A DNA stretch of 64,000 bases from Rozella allomycis CSF55 (lineage: Eukaryota). Of this stretch, positions 3,390 through 62,880 are shown one piece after another. Each line of letters begins with the position of its first letter. The first letter of the stretch is position 1. The notes below the pieces were generated by a model that searched no databases, was not told the origin of the DNA, and saw only the letters and a program-made list of their open reading frames with translations. The stretch is from the NCBI GenBank assembly GCA_000442015.1, contig KE561209.1, positions 124,001-188,000 of the forward strand. The letters are read 5' to 3'. Made by a program: the position numbers and the translations under genes.

Positions 3390-4580
3390 ATGAAAGTTTT
3401 TTCCTCATTGTTTCCTACCGCTATTTTTCAAGTAAAATGCTCCTTTTTTCAAAAATAGAAATCTCAACCAACCGTTGTAGAAATTAAAAGTCTTATTAAA
3501 AACAGTAGTTACCAAAATTTATTTGGTTCTAGTGTGGATGAATATGCCAAAGTAATCAACAACTATTAGTCAGATATTAGATATCCGATAATTTAGAGAT
3601 AATTGAAAACTATTCCAGTTCTTTTGAACTAATAAAGGTATGGCCCTTGGTCATCAATCATAAAGTTTCTTTCAGAAGTATTGAAGAAACAAACTTATTT
3701 AGCCAGCCATGATATATCAATAGCTGATTATTTTGCTCTTGATAAATGCAGTGCGTCTTTTGCCTTGTTAAAAGATGAAGAGCGTGTGAAACTATACGGG
3801 TTAACCAGATGGTTCAATACTGTGCAAAAATCTGTATGGAAGAATTCCAATGGAACATTTAATTTGGAAAAAGTGCAACTAAACTTTTATAAAGAATTGG
3901 ATGCCAAAAAATCCATTGAAAGCTCGTTAAATGAAACACCTGCTGTTAAACAAACTAAGGACGTAAAAAAAGAAAACGAAAAGAAAACTAAAACTGAAAA
4001 AGATAAAAATCAAAAGCCAAAGGCAAACGGTCAAAAAGAAACCACTGACGATGTCCCCGCTATTTGCAAATTGGATGTTAGAGTTGGAAAAGTTTTATCC
4101 GTTAAAAAACACGAGCAAGCTGATTCCTTGTACGTCGAACAAATAGATGTAGGTGAAGAAAAACCAAGGACTATTGTTTCTGGATTGGTAAAATACATGA
4201 CGGCTGAAGAGCTTCAAGGAAAGATGCTTCTTGTTATGTGTAACTTGAAACCAGCAAGGTAACCATTTTAATTAATTAAAATCAGCATGAGGGGAGTTTT
4301 ATCCGAAGGAATGGTTTTGGCTGCAAGCGACGCCGAAAAGACCAAAGTCGAGTTGTTGGTACCGCCCCCTGGTGCCATTGCAGGAGATGTGATTAGTTTT
4401 GGCGATTTCGAAAGAAAACCTGAATCAATACTAAACCCGAAAAAGAAAATATTTGAATCTGTTCAACCAGATTTTACTACTGATGACAAACTCGTCGCAT
4501 ATTATAAAGACGCTGTTTTTCAAGTCAAAGGAAAAGGTGTTGTAAAAGCACCATCAATTGCAAAAGCAAACATTAAATAA
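3390..4580 (+). CDS. ARC1: Arc1p/AIMP1-like tRNA-synthetase cofactor (GST-like N-term, tRNA-binding OB fold), 4 introns
   Basis: LDVRVGKVLSVKKHEQADSLYVEQIDVGEEKPRTIVSGLV; NLKPA|SMRGVLSEGMVL; LNPKKKIFE. Confidence 0.9.
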
Positions 4581-5269: not shown

Positions 5270-5511
5270 TTAAGCCACGTCGCAACAACAAACAAACAAT
5301 TCACAATTGTAACAGATATGGAAGAAGAGATGGCCAAATTAGGAGTTGATGAAAGTAAGATAAAAGTTTTTTCCTCGTTTATAAATTGTTGCAATTTATT
5401 TTTGCACAACTCTTTTATCGTACTCTCATCAACTCCTAATTTGGCCATCTCTTCTCCCATTTCTGTTACAATTGTGTAGATTAAGTTGTTTGTTGTTGCG
5501 ATGTGGGTTAA
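5270..5511. repeat. Long imperfect inverted repeat (arms ~100 bp, spacer ~45 bp)
   Basis: 5270-5366 is the near reverse complement of 5412-5511 (e.g. GAAGAGATGGCCAAATTAGGAGTTGATGA / TCATCAACTCCTAATTTGGCCATCTCTTC). Confidence 0.92.
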
Positions 5512-5780: not shown

Positions 5781-7497
5781 ATGACATTGAGAATTTTGGG
5801 TAATTGCGTTGATTCAAGAAAATACACCACTATTCGCCCGATATATAAAAGAGCAAATAACTTCAATGTCTTAAATAACAAACATTTAGATTTTTTTAAT
5901 TCTCTTTTGGAAAAAGAGGAGATTCAAACTAAAGATTTGGATTCTTACAATACCGACTGGATGAAAAAATATAAAGGCCAGTCAAAACTAGTTTTAAAGC
6001 CCAAAGAAGCATCAAAAATATCAGAAATTCTTCGTTATTGCAACATGGAAAAGTAGAATCGATAATCTTACTACTTTAGACTTGCCGTTGTTCCTCAAGG
6101 AGGAAACACTGGTCTTGTGGGCGGTTCAGTACCGGCATTCGACGAAATAATTCTATCGACCAAAAATATAAACAAAATTATTGCTTTTGATAAGACTAAT
6201 GGAGCAATAGTATGTGAAGCTGGTTGCATTCTTCAAACATTAGATGAATATGTCCAAGAAAACGGATTTATTGTCCCACTTGATTTAGGGGCGAAGGGTA
6301 TGGTAGTGCGAAATATATGATCTAGGAAGTTGCCATATAGGTGGTAATGTTTCCACTAATGCCGGTGGTTTACGCCTTATGAGATATGGTTCTCTGAAAG
6401 GTTCAGTTTTGGGGCTTGAAGCAGTAACGGTTTTGAATGTTCTCTAAAGATATTGGCTGATGGGGCCATTCTTTCAAATTTAAACACAATGAGAAAAGAC
6501 AACACGGGTAATGTCTTACAATAACAAAGTTATTGGCTATGATCTAAATCAACTTTTCATCGGTTCGGAAGGGACATTAGGGTTCATAACTAAAGTCTCG
6601 TTACTCTGTGTTCCTAAACCAAAAGTAAACTTACCTTCTGCATAATTATGGCACAAAATGTACTTTTGTTTGGTGTCAATAGCTATGAAAATGTTTTGCA
6701 AATGTTCAAGCTTACAAGAAGCATTTGTTCTGAAATTCTTTCGGGTGATTGTGATAATTGTGTTAATAGCAGCATTTGAGTTCTGGGATGAACATTCAAT
6801 GGAATTGACATTGAAAAACGCAAAACTGCATAGTCCATTGGCTGGACTACATAAGTTCTATGTACTCATTGAAACTTCTGGGTCTGATAGTGATCATGAT
6901 CAAAGCGTATGCTCTCTTATTTAAAATAGATATATATAGAAGCTTGATAAATTAATGAATGAAGGTTTTAGTAAAGAAATTGTACAAGATGGCATTATGG
7001 CACAGGATGTTAGCCAGGTAAAATTGGTATGAATCAAATTAAGATCAAAAATATATGGTCGTACAGAGAATTTATTCCGGAAGCCTGTTCCAGAGAAGGC
7101 TCAATGCTCAAATATGACATATCTTTACCTCAATCAAAATTGTATAGCATTGTTGAGTTAATCCGAGAAAAACTTGGAAAAAGTGTTTCTAATGTAATTG
7201 GATATGGACACATAGGTGATGGTAAAGTCAAATGAATGTTTACATAAGGCAATTTACATCTGAATATCTCATGCATGATTATTCTCCTGATTTGATTAGT
7301 ACAATCGAGCCCTTAGTTTATAATTATGTGGCAGAAAATGGAGGAAGTATTAGCGGCGAGCATGGCATTGGAATTATGAAAGTCAATTATCTACAATACG
7401 CAAAATCACCAAGCTCAATTAAATTGATGAAAAAATCTAAAGAATATGCTTGATCCCAATTCCCAATGGTATTTTAAATCCTTACAAAGTCTTTTGA
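5781..7497 (+). CDS. DLD2: D-2-hydroxyglutarate / D-lactate dehydrogenase (FAD-linked, DLD2-like), 9 introns, apparent C-terminal frameshifts
   Basis: [72 protein letters not shown]. Confidence 0.92.
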
Positions 7498-8928: not shown

Positions 8929-9927
8929 ATGCCCATTGATAGGACTCAGGAACTTCATAATTACAACAAGAGAGGAAATAGGAATTCTTATAAAAAATTC
9001 AGTCCAAATACCAGCGATCGATCCTTTGATATAGAGATGGGTGTAATCGGCGACAATAGCCAAGATTTGTTTTTCAAAGAAATAGAAGGAATTAGAGCAT
9101 CAATAACAAAAATCACAAGATATACTGATGATTTAAAACGATTGCACACCCAAGCTTTGACAACATTATACGCTGACGATGGTGCAAGAGCAAACAGGGA
9201 TATAGAAGAATTAACAATCCGAATAACAGAAATATCAAATTCAGTACGAAGGAAATTGAAAAAGATTGGCGCTGAAAATGAACAAATGGCCAATAATGTA
9301 TCAAAAGGAAATGCGAATTTAAGGATTCGTACAAATCAAGTAGCTCAGTTGTCAAAAAAGTTTATGGATGTCATGAGAAACTATCAGCAGGTTCAAACAG
9401 AAAACAAGCAAAAGCATATACAGCAACTTGAAAGACAATATAAAATCGTCAGGCCAGATGCAACACAGGAGGAGTTGGAAAAGCTTAGGGAACAACAAGG
9501 AAGTTCTTTAATGTCACAGCAAATATTTACTATCACTAATGTAGATGATGCACGAGAACTTTTAGATGACATGCAAGAAAGGCACAATGAGATTATGGTG
9601 CTAGAGAAATCCATGCTAGAGTTACATCAACTGTTTATGGATATCTCATTGTTAATTGATCAACAAGGAGACATGATAAACACCATTGAATCACAGGTTG
9701 AGCAAGCTACTGAATATACCTCTAATGCGGTCGTGCAACTGAAATCTGCTGTAGAACATCAAAAGAGTGTCAGAAAGAAGAAATGGTACCTCTTAATATT
9801 CTTCTTGATTATTTTAGCCATAGGTGGAGTGCTTCTATGGTTTTATGTAATCCAACCATTTTTGAATCAAAGGAATAGTCAATCTTCAAACATTAAAACA
9901 GGACAAAATACAATAGTTAACAACTGA
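8929..9927 (+). CDS. Plasma-membrane Qa-SNARE syntaxin (Sso1/syntaxin-1-like)
   Basis: Habc helices, SNARE motif ELHQLFMDISLLIDQQGDMINTIE, C-terminal TM. Confidence 0.92.
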   Translation: MPIDRTQELHNYNKRGNRNSYKKFSPNTSDRSFDIEMGVIGDNSQDLFFKEIEGIRASITKITRYTDDLKRLHTQALTTLYADDGARANRDIEELTIRITEISNSVRRKLKKIGAENEQMANNVSKGNANLRIRTNQVAQLSKKFMDVMRNYQQVQTENKQKHIQQLERQYKIVRPDATQEELEKLREQQGSSLMSQQIFTITNVDDARELLDDMQERHNEIMVLEKSMLELHQLFMDISLLIDQQGDMINTIESQVEQATEYTSNAVVQLKSAVEHQKSVRKKKWYLLIFFLIILAIGGVLLWFYVIQPFLNQRNSQSSNIKTGQNTIVNN

Positions 9928-13138: not shown

Positions 13139-15881
13139 TTATTTTTGAATTTTTTTAATGACATTGAGAGCGTATTTTGCCAAACTTTTAGTAGAGGAAG
13201 AAAAGCTTGAATTTTTGTCGGCAAATTTGCAAAAGTCTAGAATCCATTTTTCTGCATAGAGAGATGCAACTTGAGGGCCTAGAACGTCAGCCATGTCACC
13301 CAAGAGGCCAAGAGCGGCTTTGGTTGTAGATTCAGGTCTATGAGCATCGTTTATAACGGTGTGGATGAATTGAAGAATGTTAGGAACAGAAGATAGGAGA
13401 CATTGACTATTTTGGGCCAAGCCTCTAAAGATTGAAGAAAATGAACCCATGATAGTTTCATGCATTTGAACGATGTAATCAAATTCATCAGGATCTGAAA
13501 CATCAACTTCAATAGAAGAGATTGCATGGAAAAGAACATTTTGAACAGACTCAAAGTATTTAGAAAATGAAGATTCAATTGAAACGGCAATATCGCCAAA
13601 AATGCCAAAGACTAAAGTTTTAGTTTGTCTTTCAACATTTGGATCTTGCAGAATAATCCAGAGCGAGTTCATGAAGTTATCGCAATAAGAAGAGAATTCT
13701 TGACCAAGAAAAGTAGCAATGTCACCAACAAGAGCAACAGAAGAAAGCAAAGTCTAAAAAACAATCAAAAATCAAATAATTTACTTGTTGATCATCGTGA
13801 CTGCCCATAACGTTTAAGAGAATTGGATTCAAGGCAACCATGTACCTATTAAAAGAACCTTCGACCACGCCACAAATTTCTTTTATGACATTTAGAATAT
13901 CATCAGCCACAGTTGTATTTTTAGAACAAGAAAGAATGTTTAAAAGTAAAGTCATCAATTGATCAGCAACTGGAACCATCTTTTTGCCCAACCTTTTCAC
14001 GAGTGCATCAATAACTGATAAAATGTTAGATTGAACTTCACTTAATGAATCATCAACTGAAACATTTTGATGTTGAAGTGTAAAATTTAAATGTTCCAAC
14101 ATCAAATTTGTTAATGAAACCAAGCCTTCAGAACAATCATTAGCACTTGCTGATACAAAACAGCTTAGAGCATAATGTAAAGAAAGTTTAAAGTTTGAAT
14201 CGTTTTGTTCTTGTTTTTGAACTAGATTTAAAAATATTTGAACAAATGGATTGAAAAATGGTGAAAGATCATTTGTTTGATCTGTTTCAGCTGTTTCCGA
14301 ATATTCGGAACATAGATTAGCAATTGCAAAGGCGCAGTTTGTGGCTATTCTTCTTTTGTCATTTAAATGATCAATCAAACATTTCATAACAGATTGAACC
14401 TTTGCAGTGTCAAAGAACGCAACATAATTCTTCATAATCTCACCAACAGTCCAAGCAACTGAATCTCTAACATCAGCTGATGGATCATTCATCAAATCTA
14501 AAAGAACTGGAAGTGCCTATCAATCTTTAAATATTTTCTTACATTTCTCAAGAAATCTGTAAACAAGGGGCTTTCAATATTTCCTTCAGCCATTGTTCCC
14601 AAAGCCATAACTGCTGCTTCCTTTTGATGCCAATCGGGGCTTGTGATATAAGTTTGAATAAAGTTTAAAATTGTGTTATCTTCCAATAAATCTTTTCCAA
14701 CGCAATGTGCTAAAAATCCAAGACACGTGGCAGCAGACATAGCCACATTCCACTCATCTTCATCTGCATCTTCTTCCTGTTGAGTTAAAAGAATAAGCAA
14801 AACTGGAACAATTTCTCTACTGCCAATACGAGCAAAGTTTTCAATCTCAAACGATCTTTCACTCAAGTCGATTTCAACTTCACAAACTGTCGTCCAAAAT
14901 TCAATCGCCTGCAATGCCAAACTTACATTGTTGCTTTTCATCGCGTTGATTGAAGCTTTATACAATCCAGCCTTGTCAATTCAAACCATCTTTTCTTACT
15001 TGCATATAGCCACTCATGTGTTCATAATACAATTGCATTATTTTCACCAAACATTCAAAGGCTGACACACATATTTCCCCATCATTAGATTGTGCCGCTT
15101 CAAATACAACCTTCATTATATAATCTCTTTCCCCTTGGTGGTTAAAGTTCTCTTCAGCAAATTCTAATGAATTGTAGAGTGCATTCAACGATGCCTTTCT
15201 AATTACACTAGATGGCTCCTCCACTCTGGCACCCTGAAATATTGCAGTCATCAAATTATTAGAATACACTTTAATAGCATCGGAATCAACTTGTTCACAA
15301 ATAAATCCAATTGCTTCCATAGTCGCCTTTTTCCTATTCACATCACTCTCTGGTGAACTCATGTAATTGACCAACGTTGGCACAAGCTCACTCCACTCGT
15401 TTCTTGGTAATTCAATGTTTGCTATCGCTTCAACAACCTCTTATCAAACTTTTCAGCCTCTTACTTGCGCTGCTGTAGTCCCAACCATACTTTCTTTAGC
15501 ACCAAGGGCCATCAATGCACCCATTTTAATCTGGCTTTTAACTCCAGCATCCAAATTAATCCACTTGTTTATCATTTCCTCTCTTCTTTCCACTTCCTAC
15601 CTTTTTCAAATTACTCCAAATTTACTTTGGCTTTCATAGTGTTCTTCAAAGCTATACCAGCGGCACTCCTAACTATAGACTCACTTGTCTCATTTGTTAA
15701 CTGTTGCGATAACATCATTAAATACATCGACTATTACAAATCTATTGTATCCTTACAAAATTTTCTCTAGACGCATTCTCAAGCGCTCTAGTCGCTTCTT
15801 CTCTTACGTTTTGTACTATACTTGCCTTTTTTAGTGTTTACCTGGCGAGAGTGTGTTGATCAGGAGTTGCCCAAATTCCAT
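13139..15881 (-). CDS. KAP95: Importin beta-1 (Kap95), 7 introns
   Basis: IAKIELPRNEW, ALQAIEFWTTVCEVE, acidic loop EDEWNVAMSAATCL, HEAT repeats. Confidence 0.93.
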
Positions 15882-23485: not shown

Positions 23486-26400
23486 TTAACTCCTTTTGAG
23501 TTTAGTCAAGGAAAATAGATTTTCCGGTGATCTAAATAGATTAATTAACTGCCTAAATATTGTTTCTTCCATTAAATGATCTTTAAACTCTCGAGCCAAA
23601 AGTAAATTCTACTATAACAAATTAAGAACATTTACTTCGCACATTTCCAATATGGGGTCAATGTTTGGAATGTCTTCGTACACAATTCTAAAAGACATTC
23701 CTGTGACGATCATTCTAAGAAATCGACCAAAAGTAAAAACAACGGCAACGTACAGACCAATAACACCATATGAACTAATGGCAGATATGGCGGCAATATT
23801 ATCAGAATAGACGAAAACAACAAATTTATCGTTTGTATTATTAAAGTTGCTTATTCGTTGATTAATTTCAAACCAAGTGACAGATTCTGATGTCTGCTTC
23901 AGTAGAGTATATGTATTTTTATTGGTACCTTGTGATGTTTGTGGAATTGATCTATTTTGAATGTTTTATTTGATTACTCTAGTTTGCCTGTTGGATATGA
24001 TCTTAATAAGAGTGGTAAAAGGGCAGGAATTTCAGTTTGGGCGTACGACTCTGATGAATTTAGCAAGTCAGCCAAAGAATTTAATTTTGAAGTAATATTT
24101 GCAGTCGTTGAACCAGAAGAAGAAACAATCGTAGCTGAAGGATGCAAGACAGACCAATCAGCGACCAATGGTGAAGTTCTATTGTTCTTTGCCAAATCAC
24201 GCAATGTATCGATTAATTGAACTTTACTCTTGGGATTTATTTCCCAATTGCTGCTTGAAAACTAGTTGATGATGTATGGAAATGATTACTGAACTAAAGG
24301 AGACTTTTTGAATATTATTTTTTCCAGCGAAAGAGGGAAGATTAAAATTTTCTTTTAAAAACTTGTATTCCATGTCATTTATCGCTTCAATTCCAGTTTC
24401 ATTAGTAGTATCTGTGGCTTGGTCAAAAAGAGGCTCAAAGCCGCCAATTCTCAACGTGACTTTTAATGAAGAAATTGGGTTAGGTTGTGTTGTGCCTGGA
24501 ATAGATAGGAAAAGCAATGGAAACCAAATAAGAAAAATCAACCCGACAATCATCAATCCACAAAGGAGCCACTTGTTTGCTTTTGGCTGAATAGTTCCAA
24601 ACTTGCGAGGATAATTTTTGATGGCTGTTAGACTGCATTTAACATTGAAAACATTAACGTAAATATCTTCAAACTTTAGCCAATTGTAAAAGTCTAGACA
24701 AGTGTCTGTTACTGCCCAATCAATTATTGATCTAATTTCAAAGATGAAAGGAATTGATCTATAAACAATATTTGCAATACGATTAATTAGATTGTATTGG
24801 TTGATGATAAAAAAGGAACTCTTAAACTTTGGATACCCATGTTTTAGCTGGAGTGCGGCAAAGTACCAATAAAGACATTTAAAAAAGTACCATATCTGCA
24901 ATTGAATTAAATTTTTGATGTATTGCCTATTGTTAAGTTTGCTATATAAATTACTTGTTTGAGATTGTTAAAGCAAAAAATACCCATAGATGAAAAGAAA
25001 CTACAGAGAATATTTGAAGAATGAATTTGAACAACCAATTTTTGGCGCCATAAATACCCCTGTCGATAATAATTAAACAAAAATTAATCAATTCAATTGC
25101 AACAAATAGAGGAGGTACAGTATTTTGAGAAAATATCTAATGAGAGAAAGATGAAAAGGTTACATTGTTTAGAAATTGTAAATCTTGGGCAGTCCCTTTT
25201 TCACCCGAGAAGGAATCCCAGAAAAAGACTGTTAGAGTAAAGCAAATGAAATCACAAATGAACATTGGAAGGTAGAAATCTTTACCGAATGTTTCATTTA
25301 AATGTTCGTTAAATTTAGATTTCAGAGTTTCCCATAGGGAAGGTTTTCTGGGGACATCGAGTGGTTGATGGTTTAAAGAGAAACTAGAGATTGGAGAGCT
25401 TAAAGTTTGAGGAGAGCTAGTTGATTCGTAAGGAGAATCAATTCCTTTTCTTTTGGTGTTGTAGTTGCTCATTTCATAATTAAAGGGTCCATCGTCAACA
25501 TTTGATGCATTTGCATTCCCCAATTCAACATCGGTTTGTCTATTAAGCAATTCAACATCGTTTTGTCTATTATAGACTTCGACATCACCTTGTCTATTAC
25601 CTTGTTCTTCAACGTTGTGCTTTTCAACTCCTTTTAAATCTTTGAAATCCCATAACCCAGTTCTTCTCATGATTGAGCGTTGAATGACAAGAGAAAACAA
25701 AACAAGAATTTCAACGTTGCTTGAAGAAGAAAAGGAAGAACAAACTTTGAATAAACCAAATATTCTTGACCAAGAAAACTCTACCTTTTCTTCACAGTTA
25801 AAGGAAGAATCAATGAAAGGAAATTGAAAAATGTATCTAAAGAGAATCATGTAAACGGAATAAACAAGTAAAGAATGCCAAAAGTAATGATTGGGACGAG
25901 GTCTGCTTAGTAGACCAAAAGTTAAGATTAAAACCATTGGAATTGTTGTGATTACAGAGCCGCGTTCAATTTGAAGAAGAAAAAGAAAAAAGAAGCAAAT
26001 TAAATCAAATCTTGCTAAAATTAAGAAATAAATTGAATAAAGGAATCTTTTAAAAATATTTTTGTTTGAATATTTCTGAAATGGTTCATTGCATATTTTT
26101 CTATACAAATGAGACCAAGAAAATATTTTAATTATCAAACCTTTCAAAAAACTCACAATCACTCTTTCAGTAGCCAAGGTATCTCTCTGGTTAGTTTCTT
26201 TCTCAATGATATCTTCATTATCATCTCTTTCACCGCTAACGTTCTCTTTAACGTTCTTTTCATGAAGGCTCATTTCATCCTTTTCTCTTTTAAGGCCCAT
26301 TTCATCCTTGTCTCTTTCACCCCATTCCCTATCACCTTCGTTGAATGTAGGACTGTTTAATTCACTTTCAGATATTTCATTGAATAATTCTTTATCATTT

Positions 26401-29400
26401 TTAGAAAGATTTTCAGTAGCTTTTTCATAAACATTTTCTAAATGCAAAGAAATTTGATTTTCAGTTTTTTCATGAATATTTTGAGTGAAATTTAAATCTT
26501 TATCAACAGAAGAATTAGAAGAAAAATGAGAAGGTGAATCAAAGGAAGAATTAGGAAAATTGCTTTTGGTGTCTTTACTCTTTATGTCTTCACTCTTCCC
26601 TTGCGTACTTTTCCCTTCCTTACTGCCTTCATTTTCACCCCCTTCACCATTTTCACCCCCTTCACCCTCTTCCTCACAATTGTTGAATAAATCAATCCAA
26701 TCTTCAATTCCTTCACATTTGTTTTTGTGAATAACCATTTTAGAATAAAGATTTATAATTTGCTTTTCATAATTTATAAGATTTTGTTTCAATTCAATTA
26801 ATTGTTCAATTTTAAACAATTCAGATCTATTTGAAGCTTCCATTAATTCTTGCTTAGATTTCTTAATACAATTTCTCATTTCAGGTAAAAATGTTAAATT
26901 TGAATGAATTAGAATCAAAAAGAATAAAAAAATCATTCCTAAATAATCAAAATCAAAAATATTTTCATTTTGCAATTTATAAAACCCAAAAATTGTAAAA
27001 AAATTAACTTTGCAATTTCTGAAATTTACACATGGGGAATCACCATTGTTAAATATAAAATAGACTTGAAATCCTAAAATAACCCAAAATAGAATCAATA
27101 TATAAATTAAAATAAATCTAAAATTGTTATTCTTATTTAAAAACAATCGTTCTCCAAGAATAATCAAGTAGAGTGAAAATGAGAATAAACCAAGAGAAAT
27201 CAAATTGATTCTAAATATAGATGTAAAACAACTTGTTATCAAAATTAACCAAAAAAAGTTTCTCAAAACAAATGTAGAAAGTTTAGATGAAGCAGTTGAA
27301 GTGGCAATGGAGAGATTTGTTACTGATCGAGTAGAGAGATTTGTTAATGATCGAGTAGAAACATTTAATGATAAATTTATTACTTTGAATGTTAAAATGT
27401 AATAAATCAACATTTCAATTCCAATAGAAACATTAATGGAATCTTCATTCTTAAATCCAAATAAACCGCTAATTTCTTTACTAAACGTTATTGGAATTAA
27501 ATCATTTAAATAATTAATTTGTGATGCATAATAAACGCTTGTAAGAATTCCAAATACTATTGATTGACCTTTAAGATTAAATCTTTTGAATATAAAAATG
27601 CTAACAATTAAAAGAAAATAAAAACTTGTCAAATTTTGTCTAGCAAATCCTCCAAACAAAATTAAAGTAATCAAAATCTCCATTTTAAAATATAAAATTC
27701 CATTGAAAAGACAAGTTAAAACATTTGCTACTTTATCCACTTTTTCATCTTTAATTTTATCATTTTTAATTATTGAATGTAATAGAATAATGAATCCCAA
27801 TAAAATTTCAATAATAAAATACTCTGAAAGTGGAATATTCAAATTCTGAAATTTCGTTAATCCAATTTCATTTAAAATTTTATTTTCTGGAAAACTTTTT
27901 AATTGATAAATAATTTGACTGGCCATATTAATCTCTCCAAACAAAAGAAACATGAAATAGTTATTCTGAAATTTACTAAAAATGAAGAATAAAATTAGCA
28001 AGGCGAAATTAATTAAAGAAATAGATCTAGTAATTAACAAATAAACAAGAATAAAAATTATTAATCTTGAAAATTTAAATATTACAAATTTCAATGATTC
28101 CCAAGCGATTGCCATATTAGATTTAGACACAATTTGAGAATCATTTTTAGAATCATTTTTATCCATTTGAATATCTTTTTCACTTTTTGTGTCTTCCATT
28201 TCAATCGCTTTCTTTTCAGTGGAGTCTCTTATTACTACTAAACCATTCATTTCTTTTTCTCCTACAGATCTTCCTTCTACAGATCTTCCTTCTACTCTTC
28301 CTTCTAAAGATCTTCTTTCTACACTTTTTTCTTCCGCTTCTTTTTTTCTCATAATTCTGAAATTTAAAACACTCAAGATTAATAAAATAACATGCGGCAA
28401 TAAATATGAAAATAATTTTCCAGATGCATCTCTAAGCCCCAGATCTAAGATTAGATCTTCATTCAATTCATTTTTAATTTTTTCTTTAAAATACTTAAAT
28501 TGATAAAGATAAAGAAATGCAATAACAGAAGATGAATAAATAACAGAAATAGTCCAACTGTACAAAATAACTTTTCTAAATTGAAAATACAAACAATTAA
28601 TCCAAAAGAATAAAAATATTAAATATCCAAAACTTAACAAATTTGCTTCCTTCATAAAACATCCACAAAGTAAAAAACTTATCATTGTGACAATCCACGT
28701 GTATTTCTTTAAAATTGAATCTTTAAATTCTTTCCATTTCTTCAATTTTTCATTTCTTTTATTCTTCAAAAAGTAAAATGTTTGCAATTGAATTGTTGAC
28801 AATCCTAAAATAACCAAATACAATGTCATTCCTTCCCATAACCTTTCATACTTTGATAATCCAATCACACTCGAAATTTCAAAATTATCTTTCACAAAAC
28901 TAAACTGCCAAATATATTCTGTTAAAATAACAAATTCTGTATAAATAACTAAAACTGGCCAAAATACTTTCACTGTCCATGGAAAGGTCATAAAAATCAA
29001 AAACAATATCAAATAAATCGCATTAATCACAGTCACCTTTTCTAAACTACAAAGATAAATCAAACAAAGTGAAATTATATAAGCATAGGACAACAAAATA
29101 GAAGAACCAACTTTAATCAAATAAAATCCACTCTTCTTCACCCTCTCAATCCAAGACATCTACCATTATATTAAAGTTTTATTATTACCCTTTTATTTTC
29201 TATTGATTCTTTCTTTTCTTCTCTCAAATCTTTCCATTCATAATTAGTCAGCAAAAGCAATCCCAATGTCAACACTTTAACGCCAATTTCTAAAATTGGT
29301 ATTTTATCTCCAATCACTCCAATCTCTTTAACAATTCTATTATCATCTTTAAAATTAAACACGCAAAACAAATATTCCACAAACACAACCAAACTCATCC

Positions 29401-30529
29401 AAAATATTACATATGAAACTGTAGCCTTGTGAAACGATCTCTCAAGTAAAATAATCAATAATGCCCAAACTAAAATAGGTATAGAAACAAAGCTAGGGAA
29501 TTGAACAGCCCAAAAGATTGAAATACACGAAGATATTATCCACGAATTCTTCTTTATAACCCCAAAATTTATTCCTTCAAATACAATCTTCAAATCTCCC
29601 TTATCATACTTGAATACTTTAGACATTTGCTTAATCCCATGACTTCTACATCTATAATACAAATACTTTGCAATAAATATAAATTCACCTAAAATCAATG
29701 ATCCACTTAAAATGTCTTCCCAATTATTCAATTTAACAAAAAAGTACTCATTAGAAAACTCAAATATTTGACGCAAATACAAAATCAATAAAAATATTAT
29801 AGAATAAAAAAACTTAATGTTTTGAAATAGATTAAAAAATGACTTTGTGTATTTGCCAAATCCAATCATTAGCATCTCATACATGAAAATAACAAAAAAT
29901 ATCACAAAAGGAACCCTCTTACTAACAACAGATCCCACACCTGATAATATAATCGATAACAGCAATGTTATTCTACGAGTACGTCCAAATCTTGATGTTA
30001 TCAAATCTTCTGTTGGTTCAATAATCGCCTGTCCTGATTCACTTGCACTCTGATAATTTCGTCCCATACTCCAATCATTATTCAACGGACGAGTTTGCAT
30101 TTTAAAGGCATTAAAGAAAATAGCAACCACACTGCATACACACAGAATGACATCAGTGCCCACACTAACAAATAGCTCAAAATGATCTGTAGAGTTGGTC
30201 ATCCCAAACAATTTAGACCACTCTGGAAGGCGAAAATCAAATGCAAATGTTCTCGTTGTTTGAACAGCCGCATGGACAATACTCATCGAAATACTCAATA
30301 AAGCTACACTATATAAAATCAACTTTCTTAGCCATCCTATATTTCTATCATAAATTATTTACTGAAAGATGGTAGAAAAAATATCAAACTAGCAATAAAT
30401 AGAACAAAATAAATAAAAGAGACAATGTTAAACCTAACTACAGCACCTATAAATTATATATTGATTAATCTTACTGTACAATAAAATAATAGGCCATATA
30501 CTCTCAACTAAACGTCGAGTAGTTAACAT
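23486..30529 (-). CDS. PIEZO: Piezo-family mechanosensitive channel, ~6 introns
   Basis: ~7 kb multi-TM gene; ALQLKHGYP, PFIFEIRSIIDW, WLKFEDIY, LIWFPLLFLS, YGVIGLYVAVVFTFGRFLR, LFRSPE. Confidence 0.92.
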
Positions 30530-43902: not shown

Positions 43903-45160
43903 ATGGCAGAAAGAGGTAGTCGTCACAATTCCGAGGAAGATAAAATGGTGTTTGAAACTTCGCCAAGTGTCAAAGTAATTCATAGCTTTGAGGAACTTGA
44001 ACTGAATGAAGACCTTTTGAGGGGTATTTACGCATATAGTAAGACTTTGTTGTTTGCTGGAATAAGATTATGAAAAGCCATCAGCTATTCAACAAAGAGC
44101 TATTAAACCGATTATTCAAGGAAGAGATATTATTGCTCAAGCACAATCTGGAACTGGCAAGACTGCAACTTTTTCTATTGGAGTTTTGCAAAGAATTGAT
44201 ACCAGTCTTAGAGAGCCACAAGCACTTGTACTTTCACCCACTAGAGAACTTGCGACACAAATCCAAAGTGTGATGTTGGCTTTGGGTGATTATATGAATG
44301 TACAAGTTCATGCGTGTATAGGAGGAAGCAGTGTTGGAGAAGATATTAAAAAATTAGATTATGGACAACACGTGGTATCTGGAACACCTGGAAGAGTTTT
44401 TGATATGATTAGAAGAAGAAATTTGAGAACCAGACATATTAAGATGTTGGTGTTGGATGAAGCTGATGAAATGTTATCGAGAGGATTTAAAGAACAAATT
44501 TATGATATTTATAGATTTCTACCAGCGGGTGTTCAACTTGTTATTGTTTCAGCTACCCTCCCACAAGAAGTTTTAGAATTAACAACCCAATTCACCACTG
44601 ATCCTGTCAGAGTTTTAGTTAAGCGTGATGAACTTACTTTGGAAGGAATTAAACAATTTTTTGTAGCTGTTGAAAAAGAAGAGTGGAAGTTTGATACGCT
44701 TTGTGACTTGTACGACACTTTAACGATTACTCAAGCTGTTATTTTCTGTAACACAAAAGTTAAAGTTGATTGGTTGACAGAAAAGATGCGTGAATCTAAT
44801 TTTACAGTCTCATCAATGCACAGCGATATGCCACAAAAAGAACGTGAAGCGATCATGCAAGAATTCAGACAAGGAGCAAGGTAATCAACATTTAGTATTT
44901 AAAGTAGCCGTGTTTTAATAACGACTGACATTTGGGCCAGAGGAATTGACGTTCAACAAGTCTCTCTAGTTATTAATTATGATTTGCCAATCAACCGTGA
45001 AAATTACATTCACAGAATCGGTCGTTCTGGAAGATACGGTCGTAAAGGTGTTGCAATAAATTTTGTAAAGAACGAGGACGTTAAAATTCTTCGTGATATT
45101 GAACAATATTATTCCACCCAAATTGATGAAATGCCAATGAATGTTTCCGATTTAATTTAA
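43903..45160 (+). CDS. FAL1: DEAD-box helicase eIF4A-III/Fal1, 2 introns
   Basis: [52 protein letters not shown]. Confidence 0.96.
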
Positions 45161-45191: not shown

Positions 45192-46052
45192 TTACATTTC
45201 TTCAATCTTATCTCCTAATCCAGGTCCTTGAAAGAAATCATCCACAATCCCATCCATTTTAAATGCCATCAATTCCTCCTTTTCATCATTCTCCCGCTTT
45301 GCATTATTTTTACCATTCACATTTTCTACCAGACTATCGTTACTATTAAACACAAACCTAGCTGCGTTTTGTTCGTCATTCTTCACAGCATTCTTAATTT
45401 CAGTCATTTTATTCAAATTATTATGTAGCTTCTCTGGACTACTTAGTATTTGTTGATAATAAAAGAATCCATTAGGATGATATATTAATGCCATGGACCC
45501 TTCAGGTGAATTTATAATTGGCGGCAAATGCGTTGGAGAAACTTTGTTCATGTTATGATTAACAATCTCACTACCGTCAGAAGGCTCGTGAGTATTATTG
45601 TATGTCGGAGTAACTGCACTTTGTCCATTTGATTGCATAGAAGGAGGAGAAAATAATTTGTTCATCAATGGGTTCACAAACTCACTCCCATCAGAAGGCT
45701 CATGAAAATTATTATTATATATCAGATTATATCCACTTTGTCCATTTGATTGCACAGAAGGAGGTGATATCATGAATTCATCTTCCAACGGCGACTTGTT
45801 ATATGCCTTTTCTAGTAGTTTCCTTTGAAGCGTTCCTTTGGCATTAGCCATTCTTTGCTTGTATGGTGTATTATTTTTGTATTGTCTCGATTCAATATTC
45901 AACGCGATTTTTCTTCTTAATCGATTGTTCAACGACGCTTTTCTCATCATTGATATCTGCTGTTGCTCATAATACTCTGCTATGTTGAATGGTTGGAAAT
46001 CTGGAGTAGACACATTTTTTGGTAGTAATGGCTTTTGTTTCAAGTCTGGCAT
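45192..46052 (-). CDS. Hypothetical low-complexity protein with internal ~39-aa duplication
   Basis: 286 aa ORF; SPPS(V/M)QSNGQS...HEPSDGSE occurs twice (45535-45767). Confidence 0.6.
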   Translation of the reverse strand: MPDLKQKPLLPKNVSTPDFQPFNIAEYYEQQQISMMRKASLNNRLRRKIALNIESRQYKNNTPYKQRMANAKGTLQRKLLEKAYNKSPLEDEFMISPPSVQSNGQSGYNLIYNNNFHEPSDGSEFVNPLMNKLFSPPSMQSNGQSAVTPTYNNTHEPSDGSEIVNHNMNKVSPTHLPPIINSPEGSMALIYHPNGFFYYQQILSSPEKLHNNLNKMTEIKNAVKNDEQNAARFVFNSNDSLVENVNGKNNAKRENDEKEELMAFKMDGIVDDFFQGPGLGDKIEEM

Positions 46053-47206: not shown

Positions 47207-48972
47207 TTACTCTTCTTGTAAAACAGTGACTACTTCTGAAGCATCTGGACTTTGTCTTAAAGTCCAGTTTGATCCATTTGAAACAGCAATTTGTTTCATA
47301 ACCCTTTGATAAATCCCCTGTGGAAACTTCACTCTTAATTGCGTTTCGATTTCATTGATTATGTCGCCTTTTTTAAGTTGAGGTTTTTGAGTGAATAGTT
47401 TTAATATAACAGATCTATAAGGATCTATGGATTGATCTTGAATGGTTAGTAAAGCAACACATCTATTTGGTAAATGGATGATTGGGAGCTTGCTTAACAA
47501 ATTCTTCAACTCTTGTGAGTCTGAAAGACCTGAAATCGACAATAAATAATCATGGGAACAAATAGAATGTTCCAATAGAGCTCTTCTTATTTTCTGAACA
47601 TTTTCAGATTCGGGCTCATCAATTTCCATAAGAGAATTACTTTGACCCTCGGAAGAGGAAGGATTTGACTTTACTGCTGATTGTTTCTTTGTTTTCGGTT
47701 TTGTTAAATTCTTTAGAACTTTTTCAAACTCTTCTTCAAGTAATTTAGTTTGTCTTTCAACAATCTCTTTATGTTTTGAAAGAAAGGAATCATCTTGCAT
47801 TACTTTCAATTCCCAACCTTTTCCTGCTCTTAATCGCGCAATGTTTGTAAAGACTTCCTTTGCCAGTTCGTTAGTGATGTTGACATGTTCAATCACTTGT
47901 TTCCTTTGCACAAAATGAGATTGGTTAAATTGATGCAAAAGTTTCGTATGAACTTTAATTTGTGATTCGATTTTGTATTTGACGTCACCGCGGACAACCC
48001 AAACCCCCTGCACTAAATGAGCAACCCTTTCCAATTCTCTTAAAATATGTCTATCTTCTTTCTCAGTAACTATTTCCTTTATTTTGTTAAAAGACAAAAC
48101 ATTAGCATTCAAAAATAATGCTTTTATTTGCTCATCTAAAGGCATTTCTTGGAGTTCTTGTAATGAAATCTTTCCAGCATTTCCTTTGACCGGAATATAT
48201 CTTTTTACCAATAGAATTAATTTTTACTCTTGATCCTTTTCATAAGTTGTTGGACTAATAGAATTTAAATAGTCCTGTTTATTATCTTTCAAATGAAACA
48301 AGGTATCTGATTTCGATACCAATTTCCCCATAACTGTGGTGCTTTCAATAGACTTTTATTTCTTTCAAAATTAATTTACTTGTGATGGAAAATATTGATA
48401 CTGCACACTTGGTTCTTCGTTAATATCTTTAAGTTTTAGTGAAAGGGGTCGCTGTGAAATTTCATTCCCATCCATGTTCTTTTTTAAAACTTGTACATTA
48501 ACAATCTTTGGAGTATCATCTTCTTCCTCATCTTCATTATCATCCTTGTTATTGTCATCTATTCTATCAATATGGTTCAAAGTGGGCCTCATTTGGCTAA
48601 CACTTTTTATTGGAGTTAAATGAAGTTTCCCTACATTAACTAGTATTGTTAAGCTATACCATCTTTTATAATCGCAGCTGCATATACGGATTTTTGTTGA
48701 ACCTCGGATGAAGAAATTGAGTAATGCCCCATAACGTCTATTCCAGGTTCAGCTAATTTTCTTCCTTGTTCCTTGTCATATGTCACATGTGCAACATTTA
48801 GAGGAATCGAGAGTTCTAATACATTTGATTGTGATTTGAAGTATGCCTTTTCTGGTGGTAAAGGGTATCCTGAAGTTCTAGTAGGATGTAGCAACAAATG
48901 TAAATGTGGTGTAAGATGAGTAGATAACTGTACTGGAAGTGAAAACAGCTCTTTTCTTTCGGTTCCAGTCAT
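47207..48972 (-). CDS. RPC5: RNA polymerase III subunit RPC5/POLR3E-like, 3 introns
   Basis: LHLLLHPTR, LHLTPIKSVSQMRPTLNHID, AHLVQGVWVV. Confidence 0.8.
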
Positions 48973-61252: not shown

Positions 61253-62880
61253 TTATTTATCCAAGCGACAAATAGGATCTCTTTCGATAGATTCAATTGG
61301 AACTTTATGTCCAACAAGGTCTCTAATGTTATTGTAGCCATATTTAATCATTGCTGGTCTTTCAAGAGACAGACCCCATGCAATAACAGTAACTCTTTTA
61401 TCGAAGCCCATAGGAAGTATCATTTCAGGACGGAAAATACCTGAATTTCCAACTTCAATTCTTTTCTTCAAACCAGGGTGGTAAGCGAATATTTCCATGG
61501 ATGGTTCAGTGTAAGGATTGTAGGCAGGTTTGAATTCCAAGTCAGTTAATCCCAGCATTTTAAAGAAAGCATCCAAAACACCAATTAAATGACCCAAAGT
61601 TAAATCGTAATCAGCGATAAGACCCTCAACTTGATGAAACTCAGCCAAGTGTGTTGCATCAACAGATTCATTTCGAAAGACCTTGTCGATAGAGAAGTAT
61701 TTAACCGGTTTGAATTCTTTCTAAATGTTAGACTGAGGGTAAATAAATACCTGTTGGGCAAGTTTGTACAACATTCTCGCACTGACAGCCGTTGTGTGAG
61801 TTCTTAAAAGATTCTTTTGAGCTTCTTCAATCTTCCAGTCATAACGATAGCCAATTGAACCATTTCCGCCTTCAGCGTGTTGCTTTTTGACGCGTTCTAA
61901 ATAATCCAATGGAAATTTGTTTGAAGTTTTGGGGCTTTTCAAAAAGAAAGTGTCATGCGCATCTCTTGCTGGATGTTGTTGAGGTTGAAATAAAGCATCG
62001 AAATTCCAAAAAGAAGATTCGACATAATTGTTAGTTGGCATTTCTTCAAATCTAATTTTAATCCAAATATAATTATGTACCCAAGAACAAAAAAGATATT
62101 TCGAAATTCTTCTCTAACTTTCATTAAGGGATGAAGATGACCACATTTAGGTGGAATACCCATAGCATTCAAATTGTATTCTTTAAATACGGCTGTTTTC
62201 CATGACCCACTTTATTAAGTTGGATTTCCAAAATTACTCTGTAAGCATCTCACTTGTAAGATCCGTCGCATAGCTTGGGATTTCCAATGCAAATTTTTCT
62301 CCCTTCTTTACAGAAAACCAAACAATCTTTTCTTTGTCAACGAGTTTTCTTTTCTTTAGATCATTCAAAGTTTTCTCATTATCTAAGGTTCCAGTTTTTT
62401 CAATTTGTTCTAAATCAAGTCTTGTTTGATCGACAATTTCATTTGCAATAGCTTTTAAAGTATCTCCATCTTTCTTGATCCACTTATTTTGAAATGCCTT
62501 TCCTTGTCCAAACTTTGCTGCAGGTCCAACAACATTCTATTCATAATAATGTCATTTTATACCTGCAACTCGGCTATTTTTAAACCATCAAGACTAGCCA
62601 AAACTGCGTTGAACACTTGTGCTTCGTGACTTCCCTTTGAAACAATTTCTTTTCCTTCATCAGTTAATTTCCATATCTGTTCTTCATGAGCTTCATATTC
62701 TATCATCTATTTAAAAATTCTTAAAAATAATACTCCGTGAACTAGCAAGGATTTAATAGCACCAAGAAAAACTTGTGAATCAACAGAATTTCCCATGTGC
62801 TTAAACAAAGAAGAATTAGATATCTCTCCTTGCTTGTCTAAATGCTGCAAAATACAGTGTGGTAAACTTTCCATAGTCAT
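61253..62880 (-). CDS. FRS2: Cytosolic phenylalanyl-tRNA synthetase alpha subunit, 5 introns
   Basis: [52 protein letters not shown]. Confidence 0.97.

What the first reader, a model, noticed from the sequence alone, without database searches (positions are those of the whole stretch)
6625..6650. DLD2 intron 5: GT...ATG with no AG alternative
CCA AAA|gtaaacttaccttctgcataattatg|GCA CAA AAT GTA gives [12 protein letters not shown], matching the family pattern. Read-through hits TAA at 6643. The intron has no AG, and the next AG (6681-6682) gives AAA CTA TGA, a stop.
Basis: seen in the sequence. Interest (0 to 1): 0.72.

Follow-up and report, generated by a model that had tools for sequence, protein, structure and literature searches.

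The report
Dead splice site in decaying gene
The odd intron ending in TG instead of AG is real in the sequence, but it sits in a copy of a mitochondrial dehydrogenase gene of the fungal parasite Rozella that also carries three frameshifts, so it is most likely a mutated splice site in a decaying gene copy and not a new way of splicing.

Summary
The window is Rozella allomycis CSF55. The gene at 5781-7497 (+) is a D-2-hydroxyglutarate dehydrogenase (DLD2/D2HGDH) homologue.

Only removal of 6625-6650 (GTAAAC...TTATG, 26 nt) joins PKPK to AQNV as the family requires. There is no AG in 6626-6680, and the AG at 6681-6682 leads to a stop.

"No AG alternative" is incomplete. Two in-frame GT-AG options exist:
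- 6625-6710 (86 nt), used in the deposited protein, which drops 20 residues kept by 35 of 35 homologues.
- 6600-6625, which swaps 8 conserved residues.

The gene copy is broken elsewhere:
- Three indels in the last exon (-1, +1, +7), with a premature stop at 7293-7295.
- The -1 shift is also read in a second deposited record of the same strain.
- Intron 4 likewise needs a TG end at 6535.

Other genes in the window look normal. All 24 checked junctions have GTA...AG introns of 24-31 nt.

Best reading (0.7): a mutated acceptor in a pseudogenised copy or allele of a non-haploid genome. Neither reads nor RNA could be laid, because the read laying cap was lost. Interest is low.

The parts
5781..7497 (+). 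D-2-hydroxyglutarate dehydrogenase (DLD2/D2HGDH-like) gene copy, 10 exons in the family-consistent model; conceptual product 487 aa if the three indels are read through
   Evidence: Pfam FAD_binding_4 and FAD-oxidase_C on exon translations. Best named hits are D-2-hydroxyglutarate dehydrogenases, and there is a 100% match to EPZ31581.1 of Rozella allomycis. The closest solved structure is 6lpn. Gene model.
6625..6650 (+). Intron 5 of the family-consistent model: 26 nt, GTAAAC...TTATG, ending in TG instead of AG (the finding)
   Evidence: The junction is gapless against 35 of 35 homologues.
6508..6535 (+). Intron 4: 28 nt ending in TTG if the invariant KDNTGYDL motif is to be kept. An internal AG at 6528-6529 gives a 22-nt intron and a 2-residue insertion (NT-VI-GYDL), as in the deposited protein.
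   Evidence: 0 of 35 homologues have extra residues inside DNTGYDL. A 22-nt intron is below the 24-31 nt class.
6681..6682 (+). First AG downstream of the dead acceptor; a 58-nt intron ending here gives AAA CTA TGA (stop)
6709..6710 (+). Second AG, in frame. The 86-nt intron 6625-6710 is used in the deposited model and removes 20 residues (AQNV...QMFK).
   Evidence: 0 of 35 homologues lack these residues.
6600..6625 (+). Cryptic in-frame GT-AG alternative (26 nt, GTT donor, AAG acceptor) that would replace 8 conserved residues by intron-derived ones
   Evidence: Mean BLOSUM62 against 35 homologues is -1.24, versus 1.76 for the TG model.
7269..7271 (+). Frameshift 1: one base missing between ...NLHLNI(S) and MHDYSPDL. 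As written, the frame runs into TGA at 7293-7295.
   Evidence: The second record RKP21855.1 reads [15 protein letters not shown] in one frame, which requires the same deletion.
7430..7435 (+). Frameshift 2: run of six A where five would keep the family frame ([11 protein letters not shown])
   Evidence: RKP21855.1 ends ...KLMKNLKNML, i.e. it does not have the extra A.
7454..7467 (+). Frameshift 3: perfect 7-nt tandem duplication (TCCCAAT twice) inside ...[13 protein letters not shown]
6745..6772 (+). Intron 6 as a 28-nt NAGNAG acceptor. The second AG gives the family's EILSAFEF; the first (6745-6769, used in the deposited model) adds one Ala.

Best explanation
The 26-nt segment 6625-6650 is an ordinary ultrashort Rozella intron whose acceptor AG has mutated to TG (A to T at 6649). 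It lies in a copy or allele of the D2HGDH/DLD2 gene that no longer encodes a working enzyme.

Shown:
- The ancestral exon structure. Nine introns of 26-33 nt restore a gapless, well-conserved D2HGDH.
- The TG at two acceptors (introns 4 and 5).
- Three indels (-1, +1, +7) in the last exon. As written, these truncate the protein before the C-terminal GGSISGEHG segment.
- The -1 indel in a second deposited record of the strain.

Inferred:
- The lesions are real mutations that accumulated after loss of constraint on this copy, possibly sheltered by other alleles in a non-haploid genome.
- The spliceosome no longer removes exactly these 26 nt. It would retain the intron or use a neighbouring AG (6681-6682 giving a stop, or 6709-6710), as AG>TG acceptor mutants do in humans.
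- The deposited 430-aa proteins are annotation work-arounds that skip the lesions.
For: (1) Lesions cluster in this gene.
- The last exon needs a -1, a +1 and a +7 correction to read ...[14 protein letters not shown]...[21 protein letters not shown]. As written, it stops at 7293-7295.
- Intron 4 also ends in TG if KDNTGYDL is to be kept.

(2) The assembly is not generally error-ridden.
- An uninterrupted 1340-codon ORF (25140-29159) and many 200-540-codon ORFs are intact.
- 24 of 24 Pfam-continuous exon junctions in other genes have a GTA...AG intron of 24-31 nt. So does the SCO1 junction.
- 82 GT-AG introns were predicted window-wide, 73 of them 24-31 nt.

(3) Independent record. RKP21855.1 (same strain, 27,481-bp contig) reads [15 protein letters not shown] in one frame, which is possible only with the same -1 deletion. 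It lacks the extra A of frameshift 2.

(4) The deposited model EPZ31581.1 is reproduced exactly on the window with introns of 27, 43, 26, 22, 86, 25, 33, 26 and 92 nt. It skips SCHIG, 20 residues after PKPK, and the HIGDGNLHLN motif. The family-consistent model gives 27, 28, 26, 28, 26, 28, 33, 26 and 27 nt.

(5) With an A at -2, the two acceptors would read AAG and TAG, which are the two commonest acceptor triplets here (27 and 43 of 82).

(6) Precedent. In humans, TG works only as an alternative to an AG within 28 nt and never as the sole site, and AG>TG mutants activate neighbouring AGs (PMC2374985, abstract and section 12).

(7) R. allomycis shows a triploid-like pattern with heterozygous SNPs (PMC6784888, passages). 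Broken alleles can therefore persist.
Against: - The coding sequence is otherwise very well kept. 126 of 133 near-invariant family columns are retained, the 7 deviations are all conservative, and there is no in-frame stop once the indels are read through. Decay, if real, is therefore recent.
- Two A-to-T changes at the same acceptor position in adjacent introns is a coincidence under random decay. My rough estimate is a few percent to tens of percent, depending on what counts as a hit; this is inference, not a computation.
- Amino-acid divergence between the two deposited records is 6 real differences in about 424 residues, plus 2 mismatches caused by the frameshift. This is not clearly higher than for the neighbouring t-SNARE, at 3 of 332, so no relaxed constraint is demonstrated.
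- The second record's gene model may have been built by homology to the first, so its exon structure is not independent and it says nothing about base 6649.
- Neither read-level nor RNA evidence was obtained.
Confidence: 0.7

Rival explanations
1. The TG is used as a genuine 3' splice site. In Rozella, introns have an extremely narrow length range (about 26-29 nt). The second step could therefore pick the acceptor by distance from the 5' site or branch point and tolerate UG, so introns 4 and 5 are spliced at TG. The frameshifts would then be recent or allele-specific.
For: - Both TG-ended introns have modal lengths (28 and 26 nt), GTA donors and normal -3 bases.
- The AG-based alternatives are atypical in length (22, 58, 86 nt) and damage conserved motifs.
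- Two TG acceptors in one gene is unlikely by chance (inference).
- Intron 4 has an AG 6 nt upstream of its TG, the arrangement in which human TG sites work (PMC2374985).
- The exon sequence is otherwise well conserved.
Against: - No non-AG intron is needed at any of 24 of 24 checked junctions in other genes.
- A scan that allowed non-AG ends picked none credibly; its 3 picks all fuse neighbouring genes. That scan has low power, since it did not recover introns 4 and 5 either.
- The only two TG cases lie in the one gene with three frameshifts.
- Intron 5's TG has no AG within 28 nt downstream (the next is at 6681-6682). The only AG upstream overlaps the donor.
- In humans, sole TG sites are not used.
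Confidence: 0.1
2. Base 6649 is A in reality or in another allele. The T is then a consensus or assembly choice, or a heterozygous variant in a non-haploid genome. At least one allele may carry a normal GT-AG intron 5, and possibly an intact gene.
For: - R. allomycis is reported to have a triploid-like allele pattern with heterozygous SNPs (PMC6784888, passages).
- The two deposited records differ at 6 residues, and at the A-run indel, within this gene. They also differ at 3 of 332 residues in the t-SNARE two genes away. Allelic differences at about the 1% level are therefore real here.
- Frameshift 2 is absent from the second record.
Against: - Frameshift 1 is shared by both records.
- No read-level data could be examined.
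Confidence: 0.15
3. The deposited gene model is the true mRNA. Intron 5 is then the 86-nt GT-AG intron 6625-6710, and the protein is a 430-aa divergent FAD-binding protein lacking several D2HGDH motifs.
For: It is the only fully GT-AG, open-reading model, and it reproduces EPZ31581.1 exactly on the window.
Against: - It needs introns of 43, 86 and 92 nt in a genome where 73 of 82 predicted introns are 24-31 nt.
- It drops SCHIG even though a canonical 28-nt intron keeps it.
- It drops 20 residues present in 35 of 35 homologues.
- It drops the invariant HIGDGNLHLN motif and ends before [11 protein letters not shown].
- The skipped DNA still encodes family-like sequence in the right frames.
Confidence: 0.05

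Closest known systems
Splice-acceptor (AG>TG) loss-of-function mutations in unitary or allelic pseudogenes
   Same: A canonical intron in position, length and donor whose acceptor reads TG, accompanied by frameshifting indels in the same gene. Known AG>TG mutants shift splicing to neighbouring AGs (PMC2374985, section 12).
   Different: Splicing outcome and expression were not observed here. The rest of the coding sequence is still highly conserved. The organism is non-haploid, so other alleles may be intact.
TG-AG tandem alternative 3' splice sites of human U2-type introns (Szafranski et al. 2007, PMC2374985)
   Same: GT...TG introns of the U2 type. Intron 4 has an AG 6 nt upstream of the TG, within the 28-nt tandem limit.
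   Different: Intron 5's TG would be the sole acceptor, with no usable AG within 28 nt, which was never seen in the human set. No transcript evidence here.
Human D-2-hydroxyglutarate dehydrogenase (PDB 6lpn) / yeast Dld2 family
   Same: FAD_binding_4 plus FAD-oxidase_C domains. 126 of 133 near-invariant columns are kept in the conceptual translation. The C-terminal exon aligns to 6lpn residues 403-452.
   Different: The reading frame is broken three times and two acceptors are non-AG, so as written it cannot give the full-length enzyme. That yeast Dld2 is the D2HGDH orthologue is recalled and comes from no call.
Miniature introns of Microsporidia (e.g. Encephalitozoon cuniculi)
   Same: Very short spliceosomal introns in the sister lineage of Rozella. 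PMC6349667 (passages) describes miniature E. cuniculi introns about one third as long as a 76-nt intron and spliced at under 20%.
   Different: Rozella has many introns per gene, whereas microsporidia have few. No splicing-efficiency data for Rozella were seen.

Membership tests
D2HGDH / DLD2 (FAD-linked oxidase) protein family | FAD_binding_4 (PF01565) N-terminal domain | tested here: met
   Exon 2 translation matches PF01565 at E 9.8e-14 and 2.9e-14.
D2HGDH / DLD2 (FAD-linked oxidase) protein family | FAD-oxidase_C (PF02913) C-terminal domain | tested here: met
   Three exon translations match profile positions 34-77, 105-166 and 182-231.
D2HGDH / DLD2 (FAD-linked oxidase) protein family | Continuous open reading frame through the C-terminal catalytic segment | tested here: not met
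   -1, +1 and +7 indels in the last exon, with a stop at 7293-7295 as written.
Canonical U2-type GT-AG intron (Rozella class) | GT(A) donor and length 24-31 nt | tested here: met
   GTAAAC, 26 nt. 77 of 82 predicted introns start GTA and 73 of 82 are 24-31 nt.
Canonical U2-type GT-AG intron (Rozella class) | AG at the 3' end | tested here: not met
   TG at 6649-6650, and no AG in 6626-6680.
Canonical U2-type GT-AG intron (Rozella class) | Removal from the transcript | not testable with these tools
   The read laying cap was lost, so no junction data were obtained.
TG-AG tandem alternative 3' splice site (PMC2374985) | A functional AG acceptor of the same intron within 28 nt of the TG | tested here: not met
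   For intron 5, the next AG ends at 6682, 32 nt after 6650, and the upstream AG 6624-6625 overlaps the donor. For intron 4 the feature is met: AG at 6528-6529, 6 nt upstream.
U12-type intron | Extended donor consensus (recalled as /RTATCCTT) and AT-AC or GT-AG ends | tested here: not met
   The donor is GTAAACTT. The consensus is recalled and comes from no call.
Pseudogene (non-functional gene copy) | Frame-disrupting lesion confirmed in independent sequence data | tested here: met
   Frameshift 1 is required by the reading of RKP21855.1 on another contig. Caveat: same strain, and no reads were examined.
Pseudogene (non-functional gene copy) | No intact allele or paralogue elsewhere in the genome | not testable with these tools
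   No whole genome is held for this window. Only one Rozella cluster appears among the best 120 hits, and the organism is non-haploid.

The most novel reading that the evidence does not exclude
Rozella's spliceosome, working on introns of an almost fixed length of about 27 nt, may select the 3' splice site mainly by distance. It could then use UG as the sole acceptor, so that introns 4 and 5 of this gene are spliced at TG. This would be the first sole-TG U2-type acceptors in a fungus-like lineage next to Microsporidia.
Probability: 0.08. Interest if true: 0.65.

Novelty: new member of a known kind. Interest (0 to 1): 0.25.

Why it matters
- Two GenBank proteins for this locus (EPZ31581.1, RKP21855.1) are annotation work-arounds of a broken gene copy. 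Metabolic reconstructions of Rozella should therefore not count D2HGDH as present without checking alleles.
- The locus is a clean natural test of what a spliceosome restricted to about 27-nt introns does with an AG>TG acceptor. A few RNA-seq junction reads would settle it.
- It also shows that GT-AG-only gene callers produce outlier intron lengths (43, 86, 92 nt) that can be used to flag decaying genes in this genome.

Tried and rejected
- Whole genome: not held.
There was therefore no read-level check of 6649 or of the indels, and no junction data.
- The look-up of sequencing runs: no RNA holder listed. The one RNA run offered (X12) held next to none of the sampled words. This is not evidence either way.
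- The search for homologous proteins with the last-exon ORF at near lengths found nothing, so independent contig ORFs could not be compared that way.
- The search with exon 2 and longer lengths listed only one Rozella cluster among the best 120 of 7767. No transcript-derived protein was seen, but coverage of the collection is unknown.
- Metagenome scan with P0003: 5 loci. Three are intron-less and two have longer introns, at 39-62% identity. None is a close relative with tiny introns, so conservation of the acceptor could not be tested.
- Scan allowing non-AG ends: 3 picks, all fusing neighbouring genes. It failed to recover introns 4 and 5 themselves, so its negative result is weak.
- Scan allowing introns up to 200 nt: it chained the whole window and is uninformative about long introns.
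- An IES-like TA-bounded excision of the segment was considered and rejected, because it gives the wrong frame (reasoned).
- No extra intron can repair frameshift 1, because there is no GT between 7266 and 7275.
- The search of earlier findings: nothing on this genome.
- Literature searches 'Rozella allomycis'+'intron', 'Rozella'+'short introns' and 'Rozella'+'intron length' found no description of non-AG introns in Rozella. Only listings and passages were read. Table S7 of PMC8042348, which gives a lowest fungal intron median of 29 bp, was not opened, so assigning that value to Rozella is a guess.

Full report
**What the window is.**
- The sequence is about 34% GC throughout.
- Exon 2 of the gene in question matches, at 100% identity, a protein of Rozella allomycis CSF55 on a 719,121-bp contig (EPZ31581.1 = P0003).
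- The next-best hits are D-2-hydroxyglutarate dehydrogenases of fungi, animals and plants, at no more than 75% identity.
- Pfam finds FAD_binding_4 and FAD-oxidase_C on the exon translations.
- The closest solved structure is human D2HGDH, 6lpn.
That yeast Dld2 is the D2HGDH orthologue is my recollection and comes from no call.

**The observation.**
- One search shows CCA AAA | GTAAACTTACCTTCTGCATAATTATG | GCA CAA AAT GTA, with the middle 26 nt at 6625-6650.
- Read-through meets TAA at 6643-6645.
- The AG dinucleotides after 6625 start at 6681, 6709, 6717 and 6720, so none lies inside the segment.
- Splicing to 6681-6682 gives AAA CTA TGA.
- With exactly these 26 nt removed, the conceptual protein reads ...[18 protein letters not shown].... 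It aligns without a gap in 35 of 35 diverse homologues; one homologue has extra residues in that span.

One search lists every in-frame, stop-free GT/GC-AG option around the site. Two matter:
- *6625-6710 (86 nt).* This is the intron in the deposited protein. rebuilds EPZ31581.1 exactly from the window with introns of 27, 43, 26, 22, 86, 25, 33, 26 and 92 nt. It deletes 20 residues that 35 of 35 homologues keep.
- *6600-6625 (26 nt, GTT donor).* This keeps the protein length but replaces LLCVPKPK by intron-derived residues. Mean BLOSUM62 against the homologues is -1.24, versus 1.76 for the TG model.

Neither option looks ancestral.

**The gene copy is broken elsewhere.** My family-consistent model has introns at 6053-6079, 6298-6325, 6424-6449, 6508-6535, 6625-6650, 6745-6772, 6907-6939, 7018-7043 and 7222-7248. 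Their lengths are 27, 28, 26, 28, 26, 28, 33, 26 and 27 nt.

- *Intron 4.* It also ends in TG (TTATTG) if the invariant KDNTGYDL motif is to be kept. The AG 6 nt upstream gives a 22-nt intron and a VI insertion that 0 of 35 homologues have.
- *Last exon.* The family frame changes three times:
  - one base is missing at about 7270;
  - a run of six A at 7430-7435 stands where five would keep the frame;
  - a perfect 7-nt tandem duplication lies at 7454-7467.
- As written, the frame stops at 7293-7295, before the GGSISGEHG segment that aligns to 6lpn residues 403-452.
- No GT-AG intron can repair the first shift, because there is no GT between 7266 and 7275.

**Are these assembly errors?** General error is unlikely.
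- The window holds an uninterrupted 1340-codon ORF and many ORFs of 200-540 codons.
- I took 24 pairs of adjacent ORFs that continue the same Pfam profile in other genes. They cover hexokinase, Arc1p-like, GPI2, a pyridine-nucleotide oxidoreductase, eIF5, a DEAD-box helicase, a mitochondrial carrier, an LRR protein, Nup84/107 (3 junctions), Cdc6, PIGO, importin-beta (3), GDT1, Piezo (4), ORC3, RPC5 and PheRS.
- All 24 have a GTA...AG intron of 24-31 nt that restores the frame. A 25th junction (SCO1) does too.
- A codon-score chaining scan predicted 82 GT-AG introns when 20-45 nt was allowed, 2 of them in this gene. Of the 82, 73 are 24-31 nt and 77 start GTA. The 3' triplets are TAG 43, AAG 27, GAG 6 and CAG 6.
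- Allowing non-AG ends gave only three picks, and each fused neighbouring genes. That scan did not recover introns 4 and 5 either, so it has little power.

**A second record.**
- The 90% cluster of EPZ31581.1 holds one more member: RKP21855.1, 'partial', same strain, on a 27,481-bp contig.
- It differs at 6 residues, plus 2 mismatches caused by the A-run.
- It reads ...[19 protein letters not shown]... in one frame, which is possible only if the same base is missing at about 7270. It ends ...KLMKNLKNML, i.e. without the extra A.
- So frameshift 1 is in two deposited sequences, while frameshift 2 is allele- or assembly-specific.
- The model structure of the second record copies the first and may be homology-built. 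It therefore says nothing about base 6649.
- The t-SNARE two genes away differs at 3 of 332 residues between the same two sources. A 286-aa protein at 45195-46052 is identical on two contigs.
- PMC6784888 (passages) reports a triploid-like pattern with heterozygous SNPs for R. allomycis. It names a single-cell co-assembly besides the isolate assembly, which fits allelic differences of this size.

**State of the coding sequence.**
- Read through the three indels, the 487-residue conceptual protein keeps 54 of 57 invariant and 126 of 133 near-invariant columns of a 35-homologue alignment.
- The 7 deviations are all conservative. This number lies within the range of the homologues themselves under leave-one-out.
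- There is no in-frame stop.
- So loss of constraint, if real, is recent, or this allele is sheltered by others.

**Interpretation.**
- The simplest account of all of this is a decaying copy or allele. One lesion removed function and further ones followed, among them A-to-T changes at the -2 position of two acceptors. With A restored these would read AAG and TAG, the commonest acceptors here.
- Human data say that a sole TG is not used and that AG>TG mutants shift to neighbouring AGs (PMC2374985, abstract and section 12). On this precedent, the transcript of this copy would retain the 26 nt or use 6681-6682 (a stop) or 6709-6710.
- I put this reading at about 0.7.
- Against it stand the coincidence of two identical acceptor changes, the good conservation, and the lack of any read or RNA data.
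- A heterozygous or mis-called base at 6649 (0.15) and true use of TG by a distance-measuring spliceosome (0.1) remain open. The deposited 86-nt model as the real mRNA is unlikely (0.05).

**What could not be done.**
- The metagenome scan gave no close relative.

**Literature.**
- Searches for Rozella with 'intron', 'short introns' and 'intron length' returned no paper describing non-AG introns in Rozella. I read listings and passages only.
- PMC8042348 (passages) gives fungal intron medians of 29-197 bp in a Table S7 that I did not open.
- PMC8476143 (passages) gives 2.5 introns per kb for Rozella.

Noticed in passing
whole window; e.g. 350-375, 4259-4285, 13754-13784, 44881-44907, 61721-61750: Rozella introns form a very tight class. 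73 of 82 predicted are 24-31 nt (mode 27), 77 of 82 start GTA, and the 3' ends are TAG or AAG in 70 of 82. I found no paper describing this in the text I read, only a 29-bp lowest median in an unopened supplementary table of PMC8042348.
   Followed up: partly
6298-6340 versus 6298-6325: The deposited protein EPZ31581.1 skips the conserved SCHIG residues by using a 43-nt intron, although a canonical 28-nt GT-AG intron keeps them. This is an annotation slip unrelated to any lesion.
   Followed up: yes
5283-5366 and 5412-5495: An 84-nt inverted repeat (86% complementary, 45 nt between the arms) lies in the spacer between the ribosomal P-protein gene (minus strand) and the dehydrogenase gene. One arm contains an ATG-led short ORF followed by GTAAG. 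Function unknown.
   Followed up: no
8929-9924 (+) and 45195-46052 (-): Two deposited records of the same strain differ at 3 of 332 residues in the t-SNARE, but are identical for the 286-aa protein further along. Allelic divergence therefore seems patchy along the contig.
   Followed up: partly
25140-30358 (-): A Piezo-type channel gene with a single 1340-codon exon lies in the lowest-GC stretch of the window (25-27% GC, strong negative GC skew).
   Followed up: no
6745-6772; 44881-44907; 48631-48659: Several acceptors are NAGNAG-like or tandem (two AGs 3-9 nt apart in frame), so small alternative-acceptor variation may be common in these tiny introns.
   Followed up: no
31464 and 63497: Single N bases in the assembly.
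   Followed up: no
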